A stretch of 64,000 nt of DNA from a virus (taxonomy: Duplodnaviria; Heunggongvirae; Uroviricota; Caudoviricetes): positions 1-64,000 of IMG/VR virus record IMGVR_UViG_2706796742_000001; one strand, written 5' to 3'. A model generated the notes under the pieces. That model did no database searches. It was given only the letters and a program-made list of their open reading frames with translations, and was not told where the DNA came from. The translations under genes and the position numbers were made by a program. This document shows positions 2,298 through 52,721 of this stretch, piece by piece; positions within the stretch are counted from its first letter, which is position 1; every line of letters starts with the position of its first letter.

Positions 2298-2327
2298 TTG
2301 ACAAGGGGCTTCAAAGCCCCTTAGAAT
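2298..2327 (+). promoter_or_regulatory. sigma70-like promoter with palindromic spacer
   Basis: TTGACA-N18-TAGAAT; spacer contains hairpin GGGGCTTCAAAGCCCC. Confidence 0.4.
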
Positions 2328-2371
2328 AGCCTTACAAAATGATTTATTAACTAACAAGAGAGAGTAATAAG

Positions 2372-8585: not shown

Positions 8586-9371
8586 ATGGGTATTGTAAAA
8601 ATTATCAATGGTGATATCTTTGCCGCATTTGATAAAAGTAAGTTTGATGTCATTGGTCATGGCTGTAACTGTATGAATTTCATGGGTGCAGGTATTGCAG
8701 CAACTATTTCTAAGCGTTATCCAAAAGTATATGATACTGATACAGAAGTTTACCTGTTTGCAGGTGGTATTCGCCACAAACCATGTGAAAACCTACTAGG
8801 TAATTTCTCTGTAACACGCTTAAAACAAGGCCGTGTAGCTAACCTTTACACCCAACTTCATACTGGTAAAGATGCCCGATACAGTGCTTTAGAGTCATCT
8901 TTGAAGCAACTTAACAGATACTGTGAAGTTAATAAGTTGAAGAAAGTTGGTTTACCTATGATTGGTGCAGGTATCGGTGGACTAGACCCTCAAGCCGTCA
9001 CAGTTATCATTAATCAGGTGATGAAGAGCGTAGATGTTTACCTGTATGTCTACGAGACAGAGATGTACAACGAGTTACACTCAGGTTGGAAGAACTATTG
9101 CGAACCGGAATACTTTGCAGGTGTAGTAACGTTCACAGACAATACAGTTACCCTCTTCAGACGAAGAAAAGGTAAGATACATCAAAGTAACCCTCCGGTT
9201 GAAAAGATGTCCCTAAGTAACGCTCTAGTTACCCACCTGTCGAAGAGCAATCACAGAATTGCCGTGACATTTGGTAGCGATGCAGACACCTACATCTATG
9301 CAAGAACTGATGAGGATATCGAGACAGTTTTCTCATCACCGGAAGTTACCTTCTTAGACGCAAAGAACTAA
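8586..9371 (+). CDS. macro-domain protein (ADP-ribose binding or hydrolase-like) with C-terminal extension
   Basis: N-terminal pattern GDIF...DVIGHGCNCMNFMGAGIA and later LPMIGAGIGG resemble macro-domain glycine motifs. Confidence 0.5.
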   Translation: MGIVKIINGDIFAAFDKSKFDVIGHGCNCMNFMGAGIAATISKRYPKVYDTDTEVYLFAGGIRHKPCENLLGNFSVTRLKQGRVANLYTQLHTGKDARYSALESSLKQLNRYCEVNKLKKVGLPMIGAGIGGLDPQAVTVIINQVMKSVDVYLYVYETEMYNELHSGWKNYCEPEYFAGVVTFTDNTVTLFRRRKGKIHQSNPPVEKMSLSNALVTHLSKSNHRIAVTFGSDADTYIYARTDEDIETVFSSPEVTFLDAKN

Positions 9372-9439
9372 GAAACCCTGTAGAATATTCACAATAGACT
9401 AAGCCTTTCTTATCTGGTAAATTTTTCAGGTAAGGAGGG

Positions 9440-9640
9440 CTTTTTCATTTCAGGATTGTGCAGGTAGATTTCTGTAGAGAAATCTGTAGAGAGAATTTTG
9501 AACTCCAAAGAGAAAATCCATTTTCAAACTGTGCAGGTAATCTCCAAAGAGCTTTTTCATTTTCAAAACGTGCAGATAAAAATCAGGTCGGGCAAGAAAA
9601 ATCATTTTAGAATTGTGCAGGTAGGTGGGTGCAGGTGGGG
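9440..9640 (+). repeat. iteron-like array: four direct repeats of about 23 nt ending in TGTGCAGGTA plus degenerate copies
   Basis: CTTTTTCATTTCAGGATTGTGCAGGTA, TCCATTTTCAAACTGTGCAGGTA, CTTTTTCATTTTCAAAACGTGCAGATA, ATCATTTTAGAATTGTGCAGGTA, then GGTGGGTGCAGGTGGGG. Confidence 0.6.
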
Positions 9641-9799
9641 ATGTCGCCATTTCTCACAAGACTACCACATCTGAAAAGAAAAGTCAACAGAAAAATTTGT
9701 AGCGGATTGAAAAATAATTCTTGATTGTAGTTCTGTTTTGTGGTAGTCGCGTGCGCCCGTTTCATTACATTTTTGCCAAAAATATTTTTAAAATTTTTC

Positions 9800-9828
9800 T
9801 TGACTCCTCGAACGGGGTTATCTAGTAT
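9800..9828 (+). promoter_or_regulatory. sigma70-like early promoter with A/T-rich upstream region
   Basis: TTGACT-N17-TAGTAT preceded by AAAAATATTTTTAAAATTTTTC. Confidence 0.5.
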
Positions 9829-9838
9829 TTGCATCAAC

Positions 9839-9859
9839 GGGGAGGGAATGACCTTCCCC
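9839..9859 (+). repeat. class-B early cassette hairpin, copy 1
   Basis: GGGGAGGGAATGACCTTCCCC followed by conserved ..TAAACTAGGAGATTCAAAAATG leader. Confidence 0.6.
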
Positions 9860-9893
9860 ACTAAGTAAAACCCTTAAACTAGGAGATTCAAAA

Positions 9894-10085
9894 ATGGCAT
9901 CAAGAAAAATCAAAGTTGGCGACGAGGTTAACGTAAAACATGAATACTCTTACAAAATGTTAACTATTCGCTCTTACAAGGTTTATCAGGTGGAAGCTAT
10001 CCACGAAGATGGAACATTTTCACTAAAAGGATATAGCGAACGTTTCCCTGCTGAATTGTTCGAAAAATGGAGCACTAAAAAATGA
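9894..10085 (+). CDS. hypothetical early protein
   Basis: Small ORF preceded by class-B cassette hairpin and GGAG RBS. Confidence 0.5.
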   Translation: MASRKIKVGDEVNVKHEYSYKMLTIRSYKVYQVEAIHEDGTFSLKGYSERFPAELFEKWSTKK

Positions 10086-10288
10086 TTTACAGCCGTGAAT
10101 TGATGGTCACAACTAACGTTAACACAAAGGTAAAACGTTTTTATATGCAAGTATGCGGCGCATGGCGTAGAATATCAGAATCTGACTATTGCAACTATGT
10201 AGAAACGGCTATTAATTCTAATTGCTATCTTACAAAGAATACAAAGCGACATATAAAACAGACAGCGGTTTACTATTACGATATATAA
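10082..10288 (+). CDS. hypothetical early protein
   Basis: ATGA start-stop overlap with upstream ORF. Confidence 0.45.
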   Translation: MIYSRELMVTTNVNTKVKRFYMQVCGAWRRISESDYCNYVETAINSNCYLTKNTKRHIKQTAVYYYDI

Positions 10289-10302
10289 AAAGTACTTTAC
10301 AA

Positions 10303-10331
10303 GGGGCTTAAAAGCTGATATCTTAAGCCCC
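10303..10331 (+). repeat. class-A early cassette hairpin, copy 1
   Basis: GGGGCTTAAAAGCTGATATCTTAAGCCCC preceded by AAGTACTTTACAA, followed by conserved leader with GGAG. Confidence 0.6.
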
Positions 10332-10378
10332 AGATAAAAAGCTTTATCACATTAACCTTAAACTAGGAGATTCAAAAA

Positions 10379-10759
10379 ATGGCTTATCGTGCACCGAAAT
10401 TCATCAACAAAGACAACTTCCGCAACGCACTGGAGAAGTCACTTGATGAAAAATTTAACGGCAAATTGATTGTTGTTCACGCATTCAATTTTAAGTATGA
10501 TATTAACGGGAATAAAATCAACCATTACACGGCAACCATGTTAGATGGTGCGCTTTCAAGTGAAAAAGCCATTATCAATGCGCTTGCTGGACGTGGTAAA
10601 AACCTGATAAAATGCAATAAGAGACGTTATCAGGGCGGCGCATATGGTTACGATGATGCTGTTTATCATCTTGAAAATATGGGCTATTCAGTGGAAAAAG
10701 CTGGAGTGTCTCAAATAATCGGCAGTGACGGCTATGTGACAATTTTCAAAATTAACTGA
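10379..10759 (+). CDS. hypothetical early protein
   Basis: Preceded by class-A cassette and GGAG RBS. Confidence 0.5.
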   Translation: MAYRAPKFINKDNFRNALEKSLDEKFNGKLIVVHAFNFKYDINGNKINHYTATMLDGALSSEKAIINALAGRGKNLIKCNKRRYQGGAYGYDDAVYHLENMGYSVEKAGVSQIIGSDGYVTIFKIN

Positions 10760-10774
10760 TAAAGTACTTTACAA

Positions 10775-10803
10775 GGGGCTTATAGTTCGATAAAGTAAGC
10801 CCC
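10775..10803 (+). repeat. class-A cassette hairpin, copy 2 (loop variant)
   Basis: GGGGCTTATAGTTCGATAAAGTAAGCCCC. Confidence 0.6.
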
Positions 10804-10847
10804 AGATAAAGAGCTTTACCACTAAATCCTAAATTGGAGATTCTAAG

Positions 10848-11138
10848 ATGGCTATTATCAAAAACGTTGTAATTACTGCAAAAACTCGTGATGATGCTCG
10901 TGTTATGGCTAAAAAGTTATGCGGGAAAGTGATTGACAACGGGAAACAATCTGCTGTAAGGTGGGGCGTGAAGGCTGATAAACAGTTGAAGTTAAAAAAT
11001 TCACCGATAAACCTTTTTACATGTGTAAACACTATTGGGAAGACAAATGTATACACGAAAAAGGCATACATTAGACGCGTAGCATTAACATCCCCCATTC
11101 GTACAATGAGAAGTTATGCAAAGCTAAAAATTAATTAA
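10848..11138 (+). CDS. hypothetical early protein (basic)
   Basis: Preceded by class-A cassette variant and GGAG RBS. Confidence 0.5.
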   Translation: MAIIKNVVITAKTRDDARVMAKKLCGKVIDNGKQSAVRWGVKADKQLKLKNSPINLFTCVNTIGKTNVYTKKAYIRRVALTSPIRTMRSYAKLKIN

Positions 11139-11152
11139 TAAAGTACTTTACA

Positions 11153-11182
11153 GGGGGCTTAAAAGCTGATATCTTAAGCCCC
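11153..11182 (+). repeat. class-A cassette hairpin, copy 3
   Basis: GGGGGCTTAAAAGCTGATATCTTAAGCCCC. Confidence 0.6.
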
Positions 11183-11228
11183 AGATAAAGAACTTTACCA
11201 CTAAATCCTTAAACTAGGAGATTCAAAA

Positions 11229-11525
11229 ATGAAATTATCAAATAAAGTTAGGGAAAATCTAAGCAAATTACTCAACAAAATTGATTTTATCGAGACCTCA
11301 AGAAATACTCATGAGGTGATGGAATGGATACACGGCAAAATAAAAGGCCGTCGTGTAGTAATTTGCTTATGGAATAGCTGCAGGGAGTATAAGAAACCTG
11401 TTTTGCAAATTAATGTTTATGATGATACTTTTAAAAGCCCAGTAAAGTCTAAAAGTGACTTATTAGAATCTTATGAGATAACTGTAAGTGGCAAGGTATC
11501 ACGTAAAGAGGGAACACCATGCTAA
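11229..11525 (+). CDS. hypothetical early protein
   Basis: Preceded by class-A cassette. Confidence 0.5.
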   Translation: MKLSNKVRENLSKLLNKIDFIETSRNTHEVMEWIHGKIKGRRVVICLWNSCREYKKPVLQINVYDDTFKSPVKSKSDLLESYEITVSGKVSRKEGTPC

Positions 11526-11851
11526 TGACTGGCATTACTGCAATCATAGCCATTATAGCGCTATATAAGGCATATAAAGCCTATAATCTGGCAAGTAAGG
11601 CAATCACGCAGCAGGTTAATAATAGCCTTGTAGAAAGCTTTCTAGGGCGTTTAAGTGATGAGCAAATAAAGCGGCTAGAAATGAGCTTCAGATTTCAATC
11701 AAAAACTTATCAAATCAGCGACATTTTCAAAGAGGATTTTCAGCTTGTCGATGATTATAACGCCCTGATAAATGCTTTAAATATCAGTGACTTAAAAGAC
11801 TATTACACTGTAATTGTTCAAGAAATGAGCAAACGAAAAAATTCCTCTTGA
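11519..11851 (+). CDS. hypothetical early protein with N-terminal hydrophobic segment
   Basis: Start overlaps upstream stop; TM-like ITAIIAIIALY. Confidence 0.45.
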   Translation: MLMTGITAIIAIIALYKAYKAYNLASKAITQQVNNSLVESFLGRLSDEQIKRLEMSFRFQSKTYQISDIFKEDFQLVDDYNALINALNISDLKDYYTVIVQEMSKRKNSS

Positions 11852-11886
11852 TTTTGGTTTTAAAAGCAAGTAAATTACTAATCAAC

Positions 11887-11907
11887 GGGGAGGGAATGAC
11901 CTTCCCC
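11887..11907 (+). repeat. class-B cassette hairpin, copy 2
   Basis: AAGCAAGTAAATTACTAATCAAC then GGGGAGGGAATGACCTTCCCC. Confidence 0.6.
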
Positions 11908-11939
11908 ACTAAACAAAGTCCTAAACTGGAGATTCTAAA

Positions 11940-12212
11940 ATGTATACTACTAACAACGGTCGCACCTTAAACGTAACACTGCGCCACTATGTGAACGGTG
12001 TAATGCACTTCGAGGATTTACAAGCTGAACAACATATCTTGGATTGGCAACTTGCAGGATTCCAAAAAACTGCTACCGGATACGGGAAAAAGATTCCAAC
12101 TAGTTGGAAAGTATACTACAAAGGACGTTTGCGCAGAATTTATCAGGATGTTTACAGCAATAGCGCAACAAGTTACATCATGGTAAAAGGTAAAAAGCTG
12201 CATTTAGTGTAA
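11940..12212 (+). CDS. hypothetical early protein
   Basis: Preceded by class-B cassette. Confidence 0.5.
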   Translation: MYTTNNGRTLNVTLRHYVNGVMHFEDLQAEQHILDWQLAGFQKTATGYGKKIPTSWKVYYKGRLRRIYQDVYSNSATSYIMVKGKKLHLV

Positions 12213-12224
12213 AGTACTTTACAA

Positions 12225-12253
12225 GGGGCTTAAAAGCTGATATCTTAAGCCCC
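12225..12253 (+). repeat. class-A cassette hairpin, copy 4
   Basis: GGGGCTTAAAAGCTGATATCTTAAGCCCC. Confidence 0.6.
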
Positions 12254-12297
12254 AGATAAAGAGTTTTACCGCTAAATCCTAGACTGGAGATTCAAAA

Positions 12298-12702
12298 ATG
12301 GCTATCAATAAACGCGAATTATCAATTTTAAAAGCACGTTTGACCGTCAACCGGATTAATGTTATTACATCATCTGCACCAGATGAAACATTGCACAACA
12401 TTATTGGGAAGATTCAAAGTGTTATCTTGGACGTTGAAAACGTGAAAAACTCATTAACTGACGTTGCAGCAGGTATCACGCTAGACGGTGCACAATATGA
12501 AATGGCTGACATGTTAGGCAAATCTAAGGTAATGAATAAAGAGTTAGACTTGAAAATGTTTAGATTTGCTGTTAAAGTATGGTTATCCGTCGAATATGAC
12601 GCAAATTTTGCAATCGCTGACTTTTTCGCCACCTGGTTACAACGTAATTTAACAAATCACGATTTTCGTGATATCTGCGATGCAATTTATGCAGAACTAT
12701 AA
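12298..12702 (+). CDS. hypothetical early protein
   Basis: Preceded by class-A cassette. Confidence 0.5.
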   Translation: MAINKRELSILKARLTVNRINVITSSAPDETLHNIIGKIQSVILDVENVKNSLTDVAAGITLDGAQYEMADMLGKSKVMNKELDLKMFRFAVKVWLSVEYDANFAIADFFATWLQRNLTNHDFRDICDAIYAEL

Positions 12703-12711
12703 AAATTTCTC

Positions 12712-12897
12712 TTGATTTTGGTTTTAAAAGCAAGTAAATTACTAATCAACGGGGAGGGAATGACCTTCCCCACTAAACAAAGTCCTAAACTGGAGATTCT
12801 AAAATGTTTGGTTTTAAAAGCAAGTAAATTACTAATCAACGGGGAGGGAATGACCTTCCCCACTAAACAAAGTCCTAAACTGGAGATTCTAAAATGG
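12712..12897 (+). repeat. tandem duplication of class-B cassette (two complete units of about 90 bp)
   Basis: Block GGTTTTAAAAGCAAGTAAATTACTAATCAACGGGGAGGGAATGACCTTCCCCACTAAACAAAGTCCTAAACTGGAGATTCTAAAATG occurs twice in tandem; first unit has no downstream gene. Confidence 0.65.
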
Positions 12898-13097
12898 CTA
12901 TTATTAACGGTTTAAACATTGAAACTACTCACATCAAAGATATCAAAGTAGGGGATATAGTCCTTTTTCACGGCGTAGAAAAAACCGTCACGGCGAAAGA
13001 CATCAAAGAGGATTCTTTCATGGGTCGGTCTCTCTTCGGTGATTCGTATTGCTTAGGTTACCGTGCAGTTTTAAAAGTTGTAAAAAATAATAAATAA
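12894..13097 (+). CDS. hypothetical early protein
   Basis: Preceded by two tandem class-B cassettes. Confidence 0.45.
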   Translation: MAIINGLNIETTHIKDIKVGDIVLFHGVEKTVTAKDIKEDSFMGRSLFGDSYCLGYRAVLKVVKNNK

Positions 13098-13109
13098 AGT
13101 ACTTTACAA

Positions 13110-13138
13110 GGGGCTTATAGTTCGATAAAGTAAGCCCC
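13110..13138 (+). repeat. class-A cassette hairpin, copy 5
   Basis: GGGGCTTATAGTTCGATAAAGTAAGCCCC. Confidence 0.6.
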
Positions 13139-13182
13139 AGATAAAGAGCTTTACCACTAAATCCTAAACTGGAGATTCTAAA

Positions 13183-13725
13183 ATGAAATGCTTTCACGGT
13201 ACTACTCAAGAAAACTTCACCAACCTGATTAATAACGGTGATAAGCCATCAGGTGCATGGAATTGTTCGGATATGGATGGAAATTTTTACGTTTATCCAG
13301 AAAATAAAATCTATGGCGACGATGCGGAAGAGATAATCTCTGAAGGTATCCAACAAGCTCTGGGCAATGCCGCTATTACCGCAGCTTTTCAGATGAAAAC
13401 CCAAAACATTGTTATCTTGGAACTTGATATTCCAGAAGATGAGTTAAACGATGATTACTCATGTGATAATATGTCTGGCGTGGCAAGTTTTACAGAATAT
13501 TTTGATATAAGCTGGATTAAAAAAGTTTACACCACTGAATTTAATGCTATGTTTTCACCATTTTGTCTACCTTCACTGGATAACCCGAATTTAAACTATA
13601 TTGATGAGTCTCTGGAACTCCTCGCTAAAAGCGTTCAACAGTCCGACAGTATTCAGGTTTTTTGTGACATCATGGACACACTGACGGAAAACATCATAGA
13701 AAGAGATTTGAAGGGCTTTTTCTGA
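13183..13725 (+). CDS. hypothetical early protein (acidic)
   Basis: Preceded by class-A cassette variant. Confidence 0.5.
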   Translation: MKCFHGTTQENFTNLINNGDKPSGAWNCSDMDGNFYVYPENKIYGDDAEEIISEGIQQALGNAAITAAFQMKTQNIVILELDIPEDELNDDYSCDNMSGVASFTEYFDISWIKKVYTTEFNAMFSPFCLPSLDNPNLNYIDESLELLAKSVQQSDSIQVFCDIMDTLTENIIERDLKGFF

Positions 13726-13757
13726 AAACCTATACAATCACCTTATAAACACTGATT

Positions 13758-13778
13758 AGCCCCTGCAAGGGGCTTTTA
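13758..13778 (+). terminator. hairpin with short U-tract (weak terminator)
   Basis: AGCCCCTGCAAGGGGCT followed by TTTA. Confidence 0.35.
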
Positions 13779-13791
13779 GGAGGCTTTAATC

Positions 13792-14025
13792 ATGCTTACA
13801 ACCGTTTACCTTATCCTTTCCATCTGTAATGGTCATTCATGTGATTTTAAAGGTCTCGAGGAGTTTACAGGGAGTAAAGAAAATGCTATTCAGGTTTGCC
13901 AGATAGCAAGACAAGACTACCCCGCCAGTGATGATATTCAATGTTACTTTAAGACAGAAGACAGCGACGGCGTTTATTTTGACAGCGTTGATGGTCAATA
14001 TGAAATTATCATTGATAAAGACTAG
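13792..14025 (+). CDS. hypothetical early protein
   Basis: Preceded by GCCCCTGCAAGGGGC hairpin and aggagg RBS. Confidence 0.5.
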   Translation: MLTTVYLILSICNGHSCDFKGLEEFTGSKENAIQVCQIARQDYPASDDIQCYFKTEDSDGVYFDSVDGQYEIIIDKD

Positions 14026-14060
14026 ACAAGCCGGATAAAAGCCTGTAAATTGTCAATCAA

Positions 14061-14081
14061 CGGGGAGGGAATGACCTTCCC
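14061..14081 (+). repeat. class-B cassette hairpin, copy 5
   Basis: GGGGAGGGAATGACCTTCCCC. Confidence 0.6.
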
Positions 14082-14114
14082 CACTAAGTAAAGCCCTAAA
14101 CTGGAGTTCTCACA

Positions 14115-14261
14115 ATGTCAAATGCAGTTGAAACGGTTTTTAACAATCCGGTATTTTCAGAGATGATTTTCTCGTTTATCATGATGTTACTTGTTAAAAC
14201 CATGAAAAAGGCCGAAAAATTACACTCAAAGAAAAAAGCTATTGCAAACCGTTTTAAGTAA
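14115..14261 (+). CDS. small membrane protein (48 aa)
   Basis: Hand-traced ORF MSNAVETVFNNPVFSEMIFSFIMMLLVKTMKK... after class-B cassette; below the ORF-track length cutoff. Confidence 0.35.
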   Translation: MSNAVETVFNNPVFSEMIFSFIMMLLVKTMKKAEKLHSKKKAIANRFK

Positions 14262-14309
14262 AGATATAGTATCAATCAAGCCCACTTCCTAAACTGGAGA
14301 TTCAAAAAA

Positions 14310-14651
14310 ATGGCTTATGTAACCGTAGTAACCGATAAAGCGGATTCATCTTGGTCAACTCAAGTAAGTGATAAGATGACACCTATGCAGTGCCTAAAAT
14401 ACTTTGAGCAATGGAATAAAGGCGAGGATGTAAGCCCCTTCCAAGTAATGCAGATTATCCATACAGACGACGAAGGGATTAAAACGGTTTTAAATAGTGA
14501 GTACTATGCAACCAGATTTGAAACGAGATGTAAAACGATGAAACTATTACGCGAATCCGGTTATTCTCATATTGCCGCGCTAATCTGGGATGACTTGCTA
14601 AAAAATCAGCGTATCAGCTACGTAAAACCTGAAAAAATATTCATCAGTTAA
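14310..14651 (+). CDS. hypothetical early protein
   Basis: GGAG RBS with cassette-like leader. Confidence 0.5.
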   Translation: MAYVTVVTDKADSSWSTQVSDKMTPMQCLKYFEQWNKGEDVSPFQVMQIIHTDDEGIKTVLNSEYYATRFETRCKTMKLLRESGYSHIAALIWDDLLKNQRISYVKPEKIFIS

Positions 14652-14683
14652 TCAATAACTTACAAAAAACTTTCAAAAAAGTG

Positions 14684-14712
14684 TTGACAATGCCCCTTGA
14701 CATTGGTAATGT
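14684..14712 (+). promoter_or_regulatory. sigma70-like promoter
   Basis: TTGACA-N17-TAATGT with upstream A-tract. Confidence 0.5.
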
Positions 14713-14820
14713 TGTTCGAGGGGGTTTATCTTAAAGGGATTCACTTAAAAGATTTCTTTAAAGATAAGTTTAAAAAATTGCTTGCAATCAGATATCAAAG
14801 CAAGTAAATTACTAATCAAC

Positions 14821-14841
14821 GGGAAGGAAATGACCTTCCCC
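14821..14841 (+). repeat. class-B cassette hairpin, copy 6 (variant)
   Basis: GGGAAGGAAATGACCTTCCCC. Confidence 0.55.
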
Positions 14842-14873
14842 ACTAAACAAAGTCCTAAACTGGAGATTCTAAA

Positions 14874-15404
14874 ATGAACAAATTTCAAGCTATCAACTAT
14901 ATTCGTTCCGTCAATGTCATGTCAAAGCCTGTAAAAGATACGTATGAATTTCGTTGTAATGGTGTACACTTCGCAACAATCACCAAATCAGAAAACGGGG
15001 CTTATTACGTTCATCGCCGTAATGTTGCAACCGTTGTAGTCTCTCATTTTATGCAAGCTGTCGCGGAACTTCTCCCGATGTTTTTGGGTCTTTACTTGGA
15101 TGAGTGTAAAAACGTTCATAATCACGTTAAAAACCTTTTAAACAGTTATAAAATGGCTTATGAGCGTTCAATCAAGTCCTTGAACAAGTTTTATAAAGCC
15201 CCTGAAAACACCATATCAATGGCCTACGCTGAAAATGGTGAGGTCGTGAGTATCTTCGAAGTGGAAGAAATCGAACTGCATGACTTACGCCCTGAAGGTT
15301 ATTCTAAAACCATCGGCGAAGGTTTAACGTTCAATATCAAGAATTTAGAAAAAACTTTAAAAGATATCGAAAAAGATATTGACGAGACAATCAAAAGTCT
15401 GTAA
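14874..15404 (+). CDS. hypothetical early protein
   Basis: Preceded by sigma70-like promoter and class-B cassette variant. Confidence 0.5.
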   Translation: MNKFQAINYIRSVNVMSKPVKDTYEFRCNGVHFATITKSENGAYYVHRRNVATVVVSHFMQAVAELLPMFLGLYLDECKNVHNHVKNLLNSYKMAYERSIKSLNKFYKAPENTISMAYAENGEVVSIFEVEEIELHDLRPEGYSKTIGEGLTFNIKNLEKTLKDIEKDIDETIKSL

Positions 15405-15417
15405 GTTACTAATCAAC

Positions 15418-15438
15418 GGGGAGGGAATGACCTTCCCC
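15418..15438 (+). repeat. class-B cassette hairpin, copy 7
   Basis: GGGGAGGGAATGACCTTCCCC. Confidence 0.6.
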
Positions 15439-15470
15439 ACTAAACAAAGTCCTAAACTGGAGATTCTAAA

Positions 15471-15719
15471 ATGGCAACTATCCGCGCAATTGTAAATTCT
15501 TATGGCTGCTACACTCTGGATGTTAAATTTGATATTGGTGGAACTGATGAATGCTTTTCATTAGTGAAGACGGTTATCAAGCAAGTTATCCCAGATTATA
15601 ACCCTACTGATGACTTCTGGAAAGATGCCGTGAAAGAGGCGTTAAACGATGAATACCATTACCATTACTGGGGTGATTTGATTGTATCCCTGTACTACGA
15701 TAAAAAAGGTACTAACTAA
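15471..15719 (+). CDS. hypothetical early protein
   Basis: Preceded by class-B cassette; last plus-strand gene before terminator. Confidence 0.5.
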   Translation: MATIRAIVNSYGCYTLDVKFDIGGTDECFSLVKTVIKQVIPDYNPTDDFWKDAVKEALNDEYHYHYWGDLIVSLYYDKKGTN

Positions 15720-15757
15720 TCAACGCAGCGGGGCTAAATAGCCCCAGATACCTTTAA

Positions 15758-15783
15758 AGCCCCTTTATATGGGGCTTTTTTAC
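15758..15783 (+). terminator. rho-independent terminator closing the plus-strand early block
   Basis: AGCCCC-TTTATAT-GGGGCT followed by TTTTTT. Confidence 0.6.
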
Positions 15784-15785
15784 GT

Positions 15786-17369
15786 CCTATCAAATCCCTT
15801 TCCTTTCCCTTTCCAGAATCTATCCCATACCTTAAAAGGCAATAACTCTATAGCTTACTCTATAGCCCCTTATCAAATTAACTTAAATATAAGCCCATAA
15901 CCCGAAAGGGAAGGGCAACCATTTAAACGCTCTATAAAGCCCTATAACAGCCTTATCAACCCAACTTAAGGGATTGCATTACCTCACCCTTAAAAACCCT
16001 TTATAAAGCTTCTTAGAGCCTTAAAAGAGCCTTAAAAGAATCTTATAAGGGTGTAAGCTTTATCATCTCGTTAGTATCTAGTGAACTACTAGAAAGGGCT
16101 TGATAATACTTAAAAGGTATGCTATGGAAAGCTTAAAAGAGGCTATAAAGTTACGTAAATGCTAGCCCCCTTAACATTTTCTTAACAATTTCTTAACAAT
16201 CCCTACATAGTTATGCTTGTTAGTAACTTGTTAGCCCCTTGTTAAATCTCTGTTAAAACCACGTAAAAGCCTTGTAAGAGCCTTTGGCATAGCCTTTAAA
16301 GCCCCTGAAAAGCCCTATAAAGAGCCTTCTATACAGTTGGGGTGCAATTACTAGGGAGAGACTAAAAGGAGCTTATAAGGGGCTATAAAGGGCTTTTAAA
16401 AGGGCTGTTTAAAAGGTCACTAAGAGAGAAAGGGAACGATAAGAAAAGAGAAGTTGTGTTTGTTAACAACCACTGTGCCCATGTTAACAGCTTGTTAAAA
16501 AGATTAAACACTTGTTAGGAACTTGTTAATTATCTTAACAAAATAACCCTTTAAAATTAACTTGTTAGCTCCTGTTAGTCATCTGTTAAGCATCCGTAAA
16601 GACTATTAAGCACTTGTTAGAAAACTGTTACCCTCTTGTTAAAACTGTTAAGAATCTGTTAATACCTCTGAAGAGATGTTAAAAGGTTGTAAGAACTGTT
16701 AAGAGATTGTTAATGATATTTTAAAATTCTGCAAAGGGGATGTTAAGGGGATGTTAAGGGCTACCAAGCAGATATACATCATGAGGTAGATTCTACCGAA
16801 TCAACTCTACAGATATTTTTGAGTTCCTTCAAAGACCCTAAAAAATGACTTGATAGTCCTATTTTATAAAAATTTTAAAATTCTGAATAATTACCTATAC
16901 AGTCTTTTAAAAATACAGGCATAAACAGGCTTATAAGATACCTTGTTAATACCGTGTTAGACCTTGTGAGATAAGGTCTGTAAAGATATTCCTGTTAAGT
17001 TTGTTAAAACAGTCTATATAGAGGCTTAGTAATACCCAGTGAACACCTATAGAGGGTAACATAGCTAACCTAGAGATTAAGAGGTGTATAGGGGCTTCTA
17101 AGAGGCTATAGAGGGATGGTTAAGGTGATTGTATAGGTTGTTAAGAAGACTTGTTAGAAGAGTGTTTAGAAGGGCTATACAGAGGTGCTATTAAGACCAC
17201 TAGATAGATACTAAGATACTATATAGTACTATATAACTATATATAGAGAGTAAGCTTAAGAAGGATGTTAAGAAGGTTAGATATTTTTATTCACATATGA
17301 TGGTGACCCAGAGGTTGGGACAACCGATAAAATTTTATAAAAATTATAAATTTCGTAAAATTTACTCAA
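15786..17369. repeat. 1.6-kb ORF-free region densely packed with short degenerate repeats, between convergent terminators
   Basis: No ORF of 60 aa or more in any frame; sub-blocks of CCTTAAAAG/CTTATAAG/CTATAAAG (about 15790-16400), YTGTTAR such as CTTGTTAG and CTGTTAAG with at least 18 copies (about 16440-16760), and TATAG/GTTAAG (about 16980-17280). Confidence 0.7.
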
Positions 17370-17400
17370 TAAAAAGCCCCCAAATAAGGAGGCTCTTAAG
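17370..17400 (-). terminator. probable rho-independent terminator closing the minus-strand block
   Basis: On minus strand AGCCTCC-TTATTTG-GGGGCT followed by TTTTT. Confidence 0.45.
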
Positions 17401-52675: not shown

Positions 52676-52684
52676 TTTCTTTAC

Positions 52685-52706
52685 AGGGGCTTTATAGCCC
52701 CTTTTA
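52685..52706 (+). terminator. hairpin terminator after first tail fiber gene
   Basis: AGGGGCTTTATAGCCCCT followed by TTT. Confidence 0.45.
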
Positions 52707-52721
52707 AGAGGAAAATTTATA

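What the first reader, a model, noticed from the sequence alone, without database searches (positions are those of the whole stretch)
9830..15470. Modular early-gene array built from two classes of repeated hairpin-plus-RBS cassettes, including an empty tandem duplicate
About 15 small ORFs are each preceded by one of two roughly 80-90-bp cassettes: class A (AAGTACTTTACAA-GGGGCTTAAAAGCTGATATCTTAAGCCCC-AGATAAAGAGCTTTACCACTAAATCCTAAACTGGAGATTC) or class B (AAGCAAGTAAATTACTAATCAAC-GGGGAGGGAATGACCTTCCCC-ACTAAACAAAGTCCTAAACTGGAGATTCTAAAATG). Both end in an identical translation initiation region. At 12712-12897 the class-B cassette is tandemly duplicated with no gene after the first copy, which looks like a footprint of cassette-mediated gene gain or loss. 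This resembles promoter-early stem-loop shuffling cassettes described in T4-type phages.
Basis: partly seen in the sequence, partly recalled or inferred. Interest (0 to 1): 0.6.

Follow-up and report, generated by a model that had tools for sequence, protein, structure and literature searches.

The report
Promoter-hairpin gene cassettes in Felix-O1-like phage
A 6-kb block of small early genes of unknown function in a Felix-O1-type phage is punctuated by two kinds of repeated promoter + hairpin + ribosome-site units, and related phages have gained, lost and moved genes at these units, much as described for "PeSL" cassettes of T4-type phages.

Summary
The window is a Felixounavirus. Between a terminator at 9401-9442 and another at 15756-15782 lie 15 small ORFs of unknown function, 5 class-A cassettes, 7 class-B cassettes and one hairpin-less B variant, all on the + strand and found nowhere else in the 64 kb.

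In class B, a TTGNNN hexamer, 17 nt and TAAATT precede the hairpin by 10 nt, so the hairpin would cap the mRNA 5' end. In class A, TTTACA, 17 nt and TAnnnT enclose the hairpin.

Across 26 relatives the hexamers and their spacing are conserved while the spacers are unrelated. The class-A stem shows compensatory changes. Three other Ounavirinae genera keep the same layout with different hairpin sequences.

Gene content differs at cassette boundaries: 90% of homology breakpoints fall in cassettes, which cover 19% of the array. Phage DE7 carries a circularly permuted, translocated segment with reciprocal hybrid cassettes, as excision as a circle and re-insertion would predict.

The "empty" tandem copy is a perfect 90-nt duplication private to this genome. 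It is more likely a recent duplication than a gene-loss scar.

Verdict: a PeSL-like system in a new phage subfamily. All functional roles are inferred, not measured.

The parts
9401..9442 (+). Intrinsic terminator closing the upstream unit (equivalent to Felix O1 't13'); left boundary of the array
   Evidence: 17-bp stem followed by a T run. Same sequence as t13 in Table 2 of PMC3185647.
9800..9896 (+). Class-B cassette 1 (promoter module P1): -35 TTGACT 9800-9805, -10 TAGTAT 9823-9828, hairpin 9839-9859, AGGAG, ATG 9894 of F01
9894..10288 (+). F01 (63 aa) and F02 (68 aa); their reading frames overlap (ATGA)
   Evidence: PHROG families of unknown function
10289..10381 (+). Class-A cassette 1: -35 TTTACA 10296-10301, hairpin 10303-10331, -10 TATCTT 10319-10324 in the loop and 3' arm, initiation region, ATG 10379 of F03
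10760..10850 (+). Class-A cassette 2 (loop variant TAGTTCGATAAAG; -10 TAAAGT 10791-10796), ATG 10848 of F04
11139..11231 (+). Class-A cassette 3, ATG 11229 of F05 (F06 overlaps F05)
11848..11942 (+). Class-B cassette 2 (module P2): -35 TTGATT 11848-11853 overlapping the stop codon of F06, -10 TAAATT 11871-11876, hairpin 11887-11907, ATG 11940 of F07
12210..12300 (+). Class-A cassette 4, ATG 12298 of F08
12712..12827 (+). Class-B cassette 3 (module P2), the 'empty' copy: -35 12712-12717, -10 12735-12740, hairpin 12751-12771, ATG 12804 followed only by a 7-codon ORF (MFGFKSK, stop 12825-12827)
12807..12896 (+). Class-B cassette 4: exact second copy of the 90-nt unit. The -35 is lost (AAATGT); -10 12825-12830, hairpin 12841-12861, ATG 12894 of F10
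13095..13185 (+). Class-A cassette 5, ATG 13183 of F11
14023..14117 (+). Class-B cassette 5 (module P4): -35 TAGACA 14023-14028 overlapping the stop codon of F12, -10 TAAATT 14046-14051, hairpin 14062-14082, ATG 14115 of F13
14242..14312 (+). Hairpin-less B-type cassette: TTGCAA, 17 nt, TATAGT, then ATCAATCAAG and the shared initiation region; ATG 14310 of F14
   Evidence: the same form occurs in SUSP2
14782..14876 (+). Class-B cassette 6 (module P5): -35 TTGCAA 14782-14787, -10 TAAATT 14805-14810, hairpin 14821-14841 (two substitutions, still folds), ATG 14874 of F15
15379..15473 (+). Class-B cassette 7 (module P6): -35 TTGACG 15379-15384 inside the end of F15, -10 TAAGTT 15402-15407 overlapping the F15 stop codon, hairpin 15418-15438, ATG 15471 of F16
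15706..15750 (+). Degenerate hybrid cassette remnant: class-B ACTAATCAAC, then GGGGCTAAATAGCCCC, then class-A AGATA
   Evidence: (D5)
15756..15782 (+). Intrinsic terminator (equivalent to Felix O1 't23'); right boundary of the array
   Evidence: Sequence read. Matches t23 in Table 2 of PMC3185647.

Best explanation
The array is a hyperplastic early-gene region of a Felixounavirus. Most genes in it carry their own portable expression unit, made of a host sigma-70-type promoter, a GC-rich stem-loop and a standard translation initiation region.

Class B: an A-rich tract, a -35 hexamer (TTGNNN or TAGACA), 17 nt, a -10 hexamer (TAAATT), then ATCAAC, then an 8-bp hairpin. Transcription is predicted to start 3-4 nt before the hairpin. 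The mRNA would then begin with a 5'-terminal stem-loop, inferred to protect it from 5'-end-dependent decay.

Class A: TTTACA, 17 nt, TAnnnT, with a 9-bp hairpin filling the spacer and the -10 lying in the loop and 3' arm. This is the commonest PeSL layout. The hairpin would form only on transcripts arriving from upstream. There it is inferred to attenuate read-through, stabilise the 3' end or direct processing, while the promoter restarts transcription for the next gene.

The roughly 70-100-nt units are near-identical and all face the same way, so homologous recombination between them deletes, inserts, swaps and transposes the genes they flank, probably through excised circles. This explains the variable gene content among relatives.

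Shown here: the repeats, promoter-like conservation, hairpin covariation, and breakpoints and hybrid cassettes in relatives. Inferred: promoter activity, transcription start sites, the role of the hairpins, and circular intermediates.

The empty tandem B copy is a recent 90-nt duplication. Its effect is a promoter, a 7-codon ORF, and a second copy that has lost its -35.
For: Identity and context:
- 250 phage records match, nearly all Felixounavirus.
- Cassettes are confined to 9.8-15.5 kb of the window and are absent from Felix O1 56-86 kb.
- All array genes searched (10 of the 15) fall in PHROG families of unknown function.
- In Felix O1, homologous ORFs 16, 20, 21 and 22 peak 5 min after infection (PMC3185647 Table 3).

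Class-B promoter (90 unique copies):
- Information content peaks at TTGA (1.0-1.7 bits) and TAAATT (1.4-2.0 bits; the last T is present in 90/90).
- The 17-nt spacer carries 0.1-0.7 bits, apart from A-rich positions -26, -24 and -22 (1.0-1.4 bits), and occurs in at least 7 unrelated versions.
- An A tract lies upstream.

Class-A promoter:
- TTTACA is present in 94/94 unique copies and TAnnnT lies exactly 17 nt away in 97.9%.
- T25 and A26 are the only invariant loop columns.
- The promoter scan finds all 5 window copies.
- In phiEa21-4 the same hairpin is preceded by either TTGCAA or TTTACA.

Hairpins:
- The class-A stem is 96.8% paired, with 3 pairs changed on both sides and 0/500 shuffles reaching the covariation score.
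- Nearly all variants fold at -10 to -16 kcal/mol.
- An internal G.U pair makes class B specific to the sense strand (z = -2.4 sense against -1.0 antisense).
- Other genera keep a hairpin at the same place with a different sequence.

Recombination:
- Gene order maps of 26 + 6 genomes show cassette-bounded presence/absence of families 01-02, 03-07, 10, 13, 17, 18, 19, 20 and 22. Gene 10 sits on either side of gene 22 in different genomes.
- 213 of 236 homology breakpoints fall in cassettes, which cover 19% of the array.
- In DE7 all four rearrangement junctions are 82-112-nt overlaps inside cassettes. Promoter module P5 is joined to gene 07 and module P2 to gene 15.
- Class-B cores are as similar between slots as within a slot (0.898 against 0.900), and slightly more alike within a genome (0.909; 1/300 permutations).

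The layout matches PeSL subclasses described in PMC2839356.
Against: - There are no transcript data for any Felixounavirus in the searchable literature. Promoter activity, start sites and hairpin roles are predictions.
- The hexamers are only moderate matches to the consensus (8-9 of 12).
- The unique copies analysed are related by descent, so the conservation counts are not independent.
- Indels that survive selection must be intergenic, and here almost all intergenic DNA is cassette. The 90% breakpoint figure therefore overstates the specificity.
- The DE7 arrangement occurs in one record only. Because its flanking cassettes are identical over 72-77 nt, it is also an alternative path through a repeat-collapsed assembly graph, so misassembly cannot be excluded.
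- Neither hairpin is followed by a U tract, so terminator function is doubtful.
- Class A can also be drawn as a 19-bp interrupted helix, which suggests RNA processing instead.
Confidence: 0.7

Rival explanations
1. The hairpins are RNA processing or stability signals in one long early transcript made from the first promoter (9800), as with the RNase III sites between phage T7 early genes. On this reading the promoter-like hexamers in the internal cassettes are inactive. Cleavage would leave a 3' hairpin on the upstream mRNA and a standard leader on the downstream one.
For: - Class A can fold into an extended structure: AAAGU/GCUUU plus CUUUA/UAAAG plus the 9-bp stem, 19 bp in all, with a 3x3 internal loop. 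It folds at -23.1 kcal/mol with z = -3.3.
- The cells of the outer helices are 95-99% paired.
- The array is bracketed by one strong promoter and one terminator, like the T7 early operon.
- G.U pairs show that the structures act on the sense RNA strand.
Against: - The outer helices are almost invariant, so they give no covariation signal, and one pair is broken in 7 of 32 rows.
- The class-B stem is only 8 bp, too short for RNase III (established knowledge: about two helical turns are needed).
- This model does not explain why -35 and -10 hexamers at exactly 17 nt are kept across 7 unrelated spacers.
- It does not explain why only the TA of the -10 is invariant in the class-A loop.
- It does not explain why TTGCAA can replace TTTACA in front of the same hairpin in phiEa21-4, where no outer helix is possible.
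Confidence: 0.15
2. The hairpins are mainly transcription terminators or attenuators that insulate each small gene. The repeats are conserved for that reason alone.
For: - They are GC-rich stems in intergenic positions.
- The stem-loop of one RB49 PeSL reduced downstream lacZ expression about as much as the rrnB T1 terminator (PMC2839356).
- Overlapping promoter-terminator elements are reported to be common in bacteria (bioRxiv 10.64898/2026.08.19.745784).
Against: - No cassette hairpin is followed by a T run, and the terminator scan reports none of them, whereas it does report the upstream boundary terminator 9401-9442.
- Class-B hairpins lie downstream of their own -10, so efficient termination there would abort their own transcripts.
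Confidence: 0.08
3. The hairpin plus the conserved leader is the binding site of a phage-encoded regulator, such as a translational repressor or nuclease of the T4 RegA/RegB kind. Such a regulator would shut off or process all early messages together.
For: - The ATCAAC motif and the 30-nt leader with GGAG are more conserved than a ribosome site alone needs (1.7-2.0 bits).
- Both classes share this leader.
- The leader contains GGAG, the sequence T4 RegB cuts in early messages (from my own knowledge of T4).
Against: - No candidate regulator was identified.
- The hairpin sequence differs between genera while its position is kept. That fits a structural role better than a sequence-specific one.
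- No Rfam family matches.
Confidence: 0.05
4. About the tandem copy only: the empty cassette at 12712-12806 is the scar of a gene that once sat between two class-B cassettes and was deleted.
For: - Empty fused cassettes with non-identical halves exist in Mordin.
- In LF82P2 and L009 another gene (family 22) lies immediately downstream of F08.
Against: - The two copies are 100% identical over 90 nt.
- All 25 listed records that cover the stretch have one cassette there, and 105 records cover at least 80% of it.
- The junction ATG|TTTGG is not a homologous crossover point.
- Phage Barry shows an independent 132-nt tandem duplication that includes a class-A cassette and the 3' end of the upstream gene, so local duplications do occur here.
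Confidence: 0.15

Closest known systems
PeSL (promoter-early stem-loop) cassettes of T4-type phages (Arbiol et al. 2010, PMC2839356; Comeau et al. 2014, PMC4122927)
   Same: - Units of about 100 nt that run from the stop codon of one gene to the start codon of the next.
- Each unit has a sigma-70-like promoter, a GC-rich stem-loop placed between -35 and -10 or just after the -10, and a ribosome-binding site.
- They are clustered in a hyperplastic region full of small genes of unknown function.
- Indels and replacements between close relatives have their junctions in the units.
- The DE7 translocation has the shape predicted by the mini-circle model.
   Different: - The host phage belongs to another subfamily (Ounavirinae, 87-kb genome), and no sequence relationship to T4 PeSLs was tested or is expected.
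- There are only two sharply defined classes, which share one 30-nt leader.
- The class-B hairpin is predicted to lie inside the transcript, at its 5' end.
- Promoter, terminator and circle formation have been shown experimentally for RB49/phi1 but not here.
RNase III processing sites of the phage T7 early operon (own knowledge)
   Same: Hairpins between small early genes on one strand, bounded by strong promoter(s) and one terminator. Class A can form an interrupted helix of about 19 bp with an internal loop.
   Different: T7 sites carry no promoters and are not recombination hot spots. The class-B stem is too short. The outer helix of class A has no covariation support.
5'-terminal stem-loops that stabilise mRNA (for example the ompA leader; own knowledge)
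   Same: The class-B hairpin is predicted to begin 3-4 nt from the 5' end of the message.
   Different: Here the element is repeated 7 times, is fused to a promoter, and its role is untested.
Promoter-coupled terminators in bacteria (bioRxiv 10.64898/2026.08.19.745784)
   Same: One DNA element both holds a stem-loop acting on the upstream transcript and contributes to the promoter of the next unit.
   Different: The class-A hairpins lack the U tract of intrinsic terminators. The phage elements are repeated and recombinogenic.
Integron gene cassettes
   Same: An array of small promoter-dependent genes, separated by structured repeats, whose order and content vary through circular intermediates.
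   Different: No attC-type site was seen, and no integrase is annotated in the parts of the Felix O1 record examined. Exchange is presumed to be by general homologous recombination, and each unit brings its own promoter.

Membership tests
PeSL cassettes (T4-type phages) | A sigma-70-like early promoter (-35, about 17 nt, -10) in every repeat | tested here: met
   Tested at sequence level only.
- Class B: hexamers conserved over at least 7 unrelated spacers, with the last T of the -10 in 90/90 copies.
- Class A: TTTACA in 94/94 and TAnnnT at 17 nt in 97.9%.
PeSL cassettes (T4-type phages) | A stable stem-loop within or next to the promoter (between -35 and -10, overlapping a box, or just downstream of the -10) | tested here: met
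   - Class A lies between -35 and -10 and overlaps the -10.
- Class B starts 10 nt after the -10.
- Folding energies are -10 to -16 kcal/mol in nearly all variants.
- Class A shows covariation.
- The layouts are those listed in PMC2839356.
PeSL cassettes (T4-type phages) | An AT-rich stretch upstream of the -35, and a Shine-Dalgarno sequence plus start codon at the 3' end | tested here: met
   - Class B has an A tract 5-10 nt upstream of the -35 hexamer (1.1-1.4 bits).
- Class A has AATAAAGTA upstream.
- GGAG or AGGAG lies 8-9 nt before the ATG in all copies.
PeSL cassettes (T4-type phages) | Concentration in a hyperplastic region of small genes of unknown function | tested here: met
   - Twelve cassettes lie in 5.7 kb, with none elsewhere in the window or in Felix O1 56-86 kb.
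- The genes searched have no known function.
- Relatives carry from 8 to about 17 array genes.
PeSL cassettes (T4-type phages) | Insertion, deletion and replacement junctions between close relatives lie in the cassettes | tested here: met
   - 213 of 236 breakpoints fall in cassettes.
- DE7 junction overlaps of 82-112 nt lie inside cassettes, and its cassettes are reciprocal hybrids.
- Caveat: intergenic DNA here is almost entirely cassette.
PeSL cassettes (T4-type phages) | Measured promoter and attenuator/terminator activity | not testable with these tools
   Needs reporter fusions or transcript end mapping. No transcript data were found.
PeSL cassettes (T4-type phages) | Formation of excised mini-circles by recombination between neighbouring cassettes | not testable with these tools
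   There is only the indirect signature in DE7: a circularly permuted, translocated segment. It is present in one record.
Intrinsic (rho-independent) terminators | A GC-rich hairpin immediately followed by a U tract | tested here: not met
   The hairpins are followed by AGATAAAG (class A) or ACTAAA (class B). The scan reports none of the 12, whereas it does report the upstream boundary terminator.
RNase III processing sites (T7 type) | About two turns of double-stranded RNA, often with an internal loop | tested here: inconclusive
   Class A can form 19 bp with a 3x3 loop, but the outer 10 bp are invariant or partly broken. Class B has 8 bp only.
Any curated RNA family (Rfam 15) | A match to a covariance model | tested here: not met
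   No match with an E-value up to 1 in 9300-16900, on either strand.

The most novel reading that the evidence does not exclude
The Ounavirinae cassettes could form a recombinase-independent gene-cassette system. Small anti-host genes would be excised as circles at class-A or class-B units and re-inserted at any other unit of the same or, through the shared leader, the other class. Each would arrive with a ready-made promoter and ribosome site. Class A would in addition be a dual element, acting as a promoter on DNA and as an RNase-III-type processing or 3'-stabilising hairpin on read-through RNA. That would make the array a natural, self-shuffling expression platform shared by four genera.
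Probability: 0.3. Interest if true: 0.65.

Novelty: new member of a known kind. Interest (0 to 1): 0.45.

Why it matters
Felix O1 and its relatives are widely used for Salmonella and E. coli typing, biocontrol and therapy. Yet the Felix O1 genome paper states that its promoters and temporal control are not understood, and it lists these sequences only as '57-bp and 39-bp direct repeats'. The wV8 and Mordin records likewise annotate them as bare repeat regions.

Reading them as promoter-hairpin-leader cassettes has three consequences:
- It gives a concrete, testable map of the early transcription units.
- It explains why the early gene set differs between otherwise near-identical therapeutic phages.
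- It extends the PeSL idea beyond T4-type phages, which suggests that repeated regulatory cassettes are a general way for virulent phages to shuffle accessory genes.

The cassettes are also compact natural parts (promoter, 5' hairpin and strong leader) for phage engineering. They are also repeats that can mislead short-read assembly.

Tried and rejected
- Rfam search of 9300-16900 at E-value up to 1: nothing.
- Pfam on nine array proteins and the flanking F00: no hit for any array protein above Pfam's threshold; F00 matches the Macro domain. PHROGs on ten array proteins: all unknown function.
- Literature searches for Felix O1 or Felixounavirus promoters, stem-loops, transcriptomes or PeSL gave no functional description of these repeats.
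- The wV8 paper has no mention of promoters or repeats.
- Intrinsic terminator reading rejected: there is no U tract.
- N4-type hairpin promoters were considered and dropped. Felix O1 encodes no RNA polymerase (PMC3185647), and the hairpins have large loops and G.U pairs.
- A transposon or MITE reading was dropped. There are no terminal inverted repeats or target duplications, and all copies share one orientation.
- Within-genome homogenisation of class A was tested and not found (27/300 permutations). It is only weak for class B.
- Outer-helix covariation for class A was tested and is inconclusive.
- I looked for relatives with the B-B tandem or a gene inside it and found none among the records examined.
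- I looked for other records with the DE7 order and found none.
- The first script failed on multi-record files, and one fold request was too long.

Full report
**What the window is**

A megablast search of 9800-15800 hits 250 phage records, almost all Felixounavirus (the Felix-O1-like myoviruses of Escherichia, Salmonella and Shigella). The best hit covers 94% at 89% identity (Shigella phage Z31). Most records cover only 53-80% of the query, in 4-15 pieces. The region is therefore conserved in kind but mosaic in content.

It lies between two intrinsic terminators that correspond to t13 and t23 of Felix O1: 9401-9442 and 15756-15782. All genes are on the + strand.

**Check of the observation**

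- The class-B hairpin occurs 7 times (0.00 expected).
- The class-A core occurs 5 times (0.02 expected).
- The shared initiation region occurs 9 times in the array (0.86 expected in the whole window).
- The repeat finder recovers the same families at 60-100% identity over 90-130 nt.
- The tandem copy is 2.0 exact copies of a 90-nt unit at 12717-12896.

There are 15 real ORFs of 48-180 aa. Eleven directly follow a full cassette. F14 follows a B-type cassette without a hairpin. F02 and F06 overlap the preceding gene. F12 has its own hairpin and ribosome-binding site.

Loose searches find no further copies in the 64-kb window or in Felix O1 56-86 kb.

**Anatomy: both classes contain promoter-like elements**

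Class B:
- All seven window copies have a -35-like hexamer (TTGACT, TTGATT, TAGACA, TTGCAA or TTGACG), exactly 17 nt, a -10-like hexamer (TAGTAT, TAAATT or TAAGTT), then 10 nt ending in ATCAAC, then the hairpin.
- Over 90 unique copies from 26 genomes, information content peaks at TTGA and TAAATT, and the last T is present in 90/90.
- The 17-nt spacer carries 0.1-0.7 bits, apart from A-rich positions -26, -24 and -22 (1.0-1.4 bits), and an A tract lies upstream.
- The spacer comes in at least seven unrelated versions. Two of them sit inside the end of the upstream coding sequence.
- This is what a working sigma-70 promoter looks like under comparison.
- A start 6-8 nt after the -10 would put the hairpin 3-4 nt from the 5' end of the RNA (inference).

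Class A:
- TTTACA is present in 94/94 unique copies, and a TAnnnT hexamer lies exactly 17 nt downstream in 97.9%.
- The loop otherwise varies freely. In the alignment of 37 variants, the only invariant loop columns are the T and A that begin this hexamer.
- The simple promoter scan picks up all five window copies.

**The hairpins are selected structures on the sense strand**

- Nearly all variants of both classes fold at -10 to -16 kcal/mol.
- For the class-A 9-bp stem, 96.8% of cells are paired and three pairs change on both sides (UA to AU; AU to UA; AU to CG or UG). No shuffle out of 500 reaches the covariation score, and slid registers collapse to 22-67% paired. The copies are related, so this count is supportive rather than a probability.
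- Class B has an internal G.U pair that would be an A-C mismatch on the other strand. The sense strand folds better (z = -2.4) than the antisense strand (z = -1.0).
- Neither hairpin is followed by a T run.
- No Rfam family matches.

**Other genera**

Homologous arrays exist in Mordin (Mooglevirus), SUSP2 (Suspvirus) and phiEa21-4 (Kolesnikvirus). They keep the same layout with different hairpins.

- After ATCAAC or ATCAGAC, the hairpin is GGGGCAAGATAAAGCCCC, GGGCAAACAAGCCC or GGGGAAGAAATCACTTCCCC.
- The class-A stem becomes GGTGTTTAGA...TCTAAGCACC, with compensating changes, and TAATCT or TAGTAT still lies 17 nt from TTTACA.
- In phiEa21-4 one hairpin is preceded by either TTGCAA or TTTACA. 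Another carries TAAAAT in its loop, 18 nt from TTGACA.

Conservation of position and promoter geometry across changed sequence is the strongest argument that promoter and hairpin are both functional.

**Gene content and recombination**

I clustered the array proteins and mapped cassettes in 26 genomes, then in six more.

- Order and content vary at cassette boundaries.
- Families 01-02, 10, 13, 17, 18, 19, 20 and 22 are present or absent.
- LF82P2 lacks families 03-07, 10 and 13-15.
- Gene 10 lies before gene 22 in some genomes and after it in others.
- A homologue of F01 sits in another slot in Mordin.
- Of 236 ends of homology between the window array and 31 loci, 213 (90%) fall in cassettes, which cover 19% of the array. 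Surviving indels must be intergenic, so this figure alone is weak.

The stronger evidence is at sequence level, in phage DE7.

- The segment F04-F07 is missing from its usual place (F03-[A]-F08). It reappears, circularly permuted, between F14 and F15 as [B]-F07-[A]-F04-F06-[B].
- All four junctions are 82-112-nt overlaps of homology inside cassettes.
- The two flanking B cassettes are reciprocal hybrids. The promoter module that normally follows F14 now drives F07, and the module that normally ends F06 now drives F15. Both share a rare loop variant.
- This is the product expected from excision of a circle by A-with-A recombination and re-insertion by B-with-B recombination, the mechanism shown experimentally for PeSLs (PMC2839356).
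- Caveat: the arrangement is in one record only. Because the repeats are identical over 72-77 nt, it could also be a repeat-induced misassembly.

Class-B cores are as alike between different slots as between the same slot of different genomes (0.898 against 0.900). They are slightly more alike within a genome (0.909; 1/300 permutations). Class A follows its slot (0.914 against 0.864).

**The empty tandem copy**

- The two 90-nt units are identical.
- In all 25 listed records that cover this stretch the match spans about 231 nt, that is one cassette; 105 records cover at least 80% of the query.
- No mapped relative has B-B here.
- The junction ...AAAATG|TTTGG... shares no bases with the flanks, so it is not a homologous crossover.
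- The first copy keeps a full promoter, hairpin and ATG, followed by seven codons (MFGFKSK). The second has lost its -35.
- Phage Barry has an independent 132-nt tandem duplication that includes a class-A cassette.
- Mordin has two class-A cores with different loops fused head to tail with no gene between them. That is a better candidate for a gene-loss scar.
- I therefore read the window's tandem as a recent local duplication (about 0.8) rather than a deletion scar (about 0.15).

**What is known**

- The Felix O1 genome paper lists these sequences as 57-bp and 39-bp direct repeats. It names five unrelated putative promoters and states that how transcription is organised is not known.
- Its RT-PCR table places ORFs 16, 20, 21 and 22 at 5 min and ORFs 14, 17, 19 and 23 at 25 min.
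- The wV8 record annotates DR_1 to DR_9 here. Mordin annotates a 14-nt repeat before each ribosome site, and Barry annotates a 'Repeat_01'.
- I found no paper that interprets them, no Felixounavirus transcript map, and no use of 'PeSL' outside T4-type phages apart from passing mentions.
- The library lacks many subscription papers, for example the phiEa21-4 genome paper, so prior description cannot be excluded.

**Comparison and verdict**

The units meet every sequence-level criterion of PeSLs: promoter, stem-loop in the listed positions, AT-rich upstream tract, ribosome site, clustering among genes of unknown function, and junctions in the units. The experimental criteria (activity, circles) could not be tested.

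The units differ from T4-type PeSLs in three ways. They lie in another subfamily. They come in two sharply defined classes with a common leader. The class-B hairpin is predicted to lie at the 5' end of its own message.

The main rival is RNA processing in a single long transcript. It remains possible for class A, which can form a 19-bp interrupted helix, but it does not explain the promoter signatures. A dual role is plausible.

I rate this a new member of a known kind, of moderate interest.

Noticed in passing
window 9436-9623: Four direct repeats of about 38-45 nt ending in ...CATTTTCAAACTGTGCAGGTA lie between the upstream terminator and the first array promoter (families D8/D10). Some relatives annotate a small ORF here. 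Their purpose is unknown.
   Followed up: no
window about 16000-17400: About 1.4 kb after the array terminator has no convincing ORF and is dense in 10-13-nt repeats (CTTGTTA, AAGGGGCTTAT, CTTAACAATTT). Several of the GenBank relatives examined are opened close to this point, so it may hold the genome end or an origin.
   Followed up: no
window 2298-2345 and 52680-52720: Two isolated elements of similar design lie outside the array. One is TTGACA-AGGGGCTTCAAAGCCCCT-TAGAAT, a GC hairpin in a promoter spacer. The other is CTTTACA-GGGGCTTTATAGCCCC-TTTT, a hairpin with a T run.
   Followed up: partly
window 14652-14781: A non-coding gap of about 220 nt between F14 and F15 (14652-14873), also present in relatives, contains overlapping TTGACA motifs (TTGACAATGCCCCTTGACATTGGTAATGT) in this part, upstream of the P5 class-B cassette.
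   Followed up: no
window 8586-9371: The gene just upstream of the array encodes a 261-aa macro-domain protein (Pfam PF01661, E = 1.7e-7). It is annotated 'phosphatase' in relatives. I used it as the anchor to fetch related loci.
   Followed up: partly
L028 (phage Barry) 4897-5161; L031 (phage Mordin) 1884-2026: Independent cassette tandems occur in other isolates. Barry has a 132-nt duplication of the end of gene 07 plus a class-A cassette. Mordin has two different class-A cores fused with no gene between them.
   Followed up: yes
L029 (Felixounavirus LF82P2): This isolate has a strongly reduced array of 8 genes: it lacks families 03-07, 10 and 13-15. The whole block is therefore dispensable in at least one host.
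   Followed up: partly
GenBank records JLBYU28, vB_SflM_004, ESCO49/50 (table): Small array genes (98-110 aa) are annotated there as 'tail sheath monomer', 'tail tube protein' and 'prohead assembly scaffold protein'. Given their size and position, these look like annotation errors that are being propagated.
   Followed up: no
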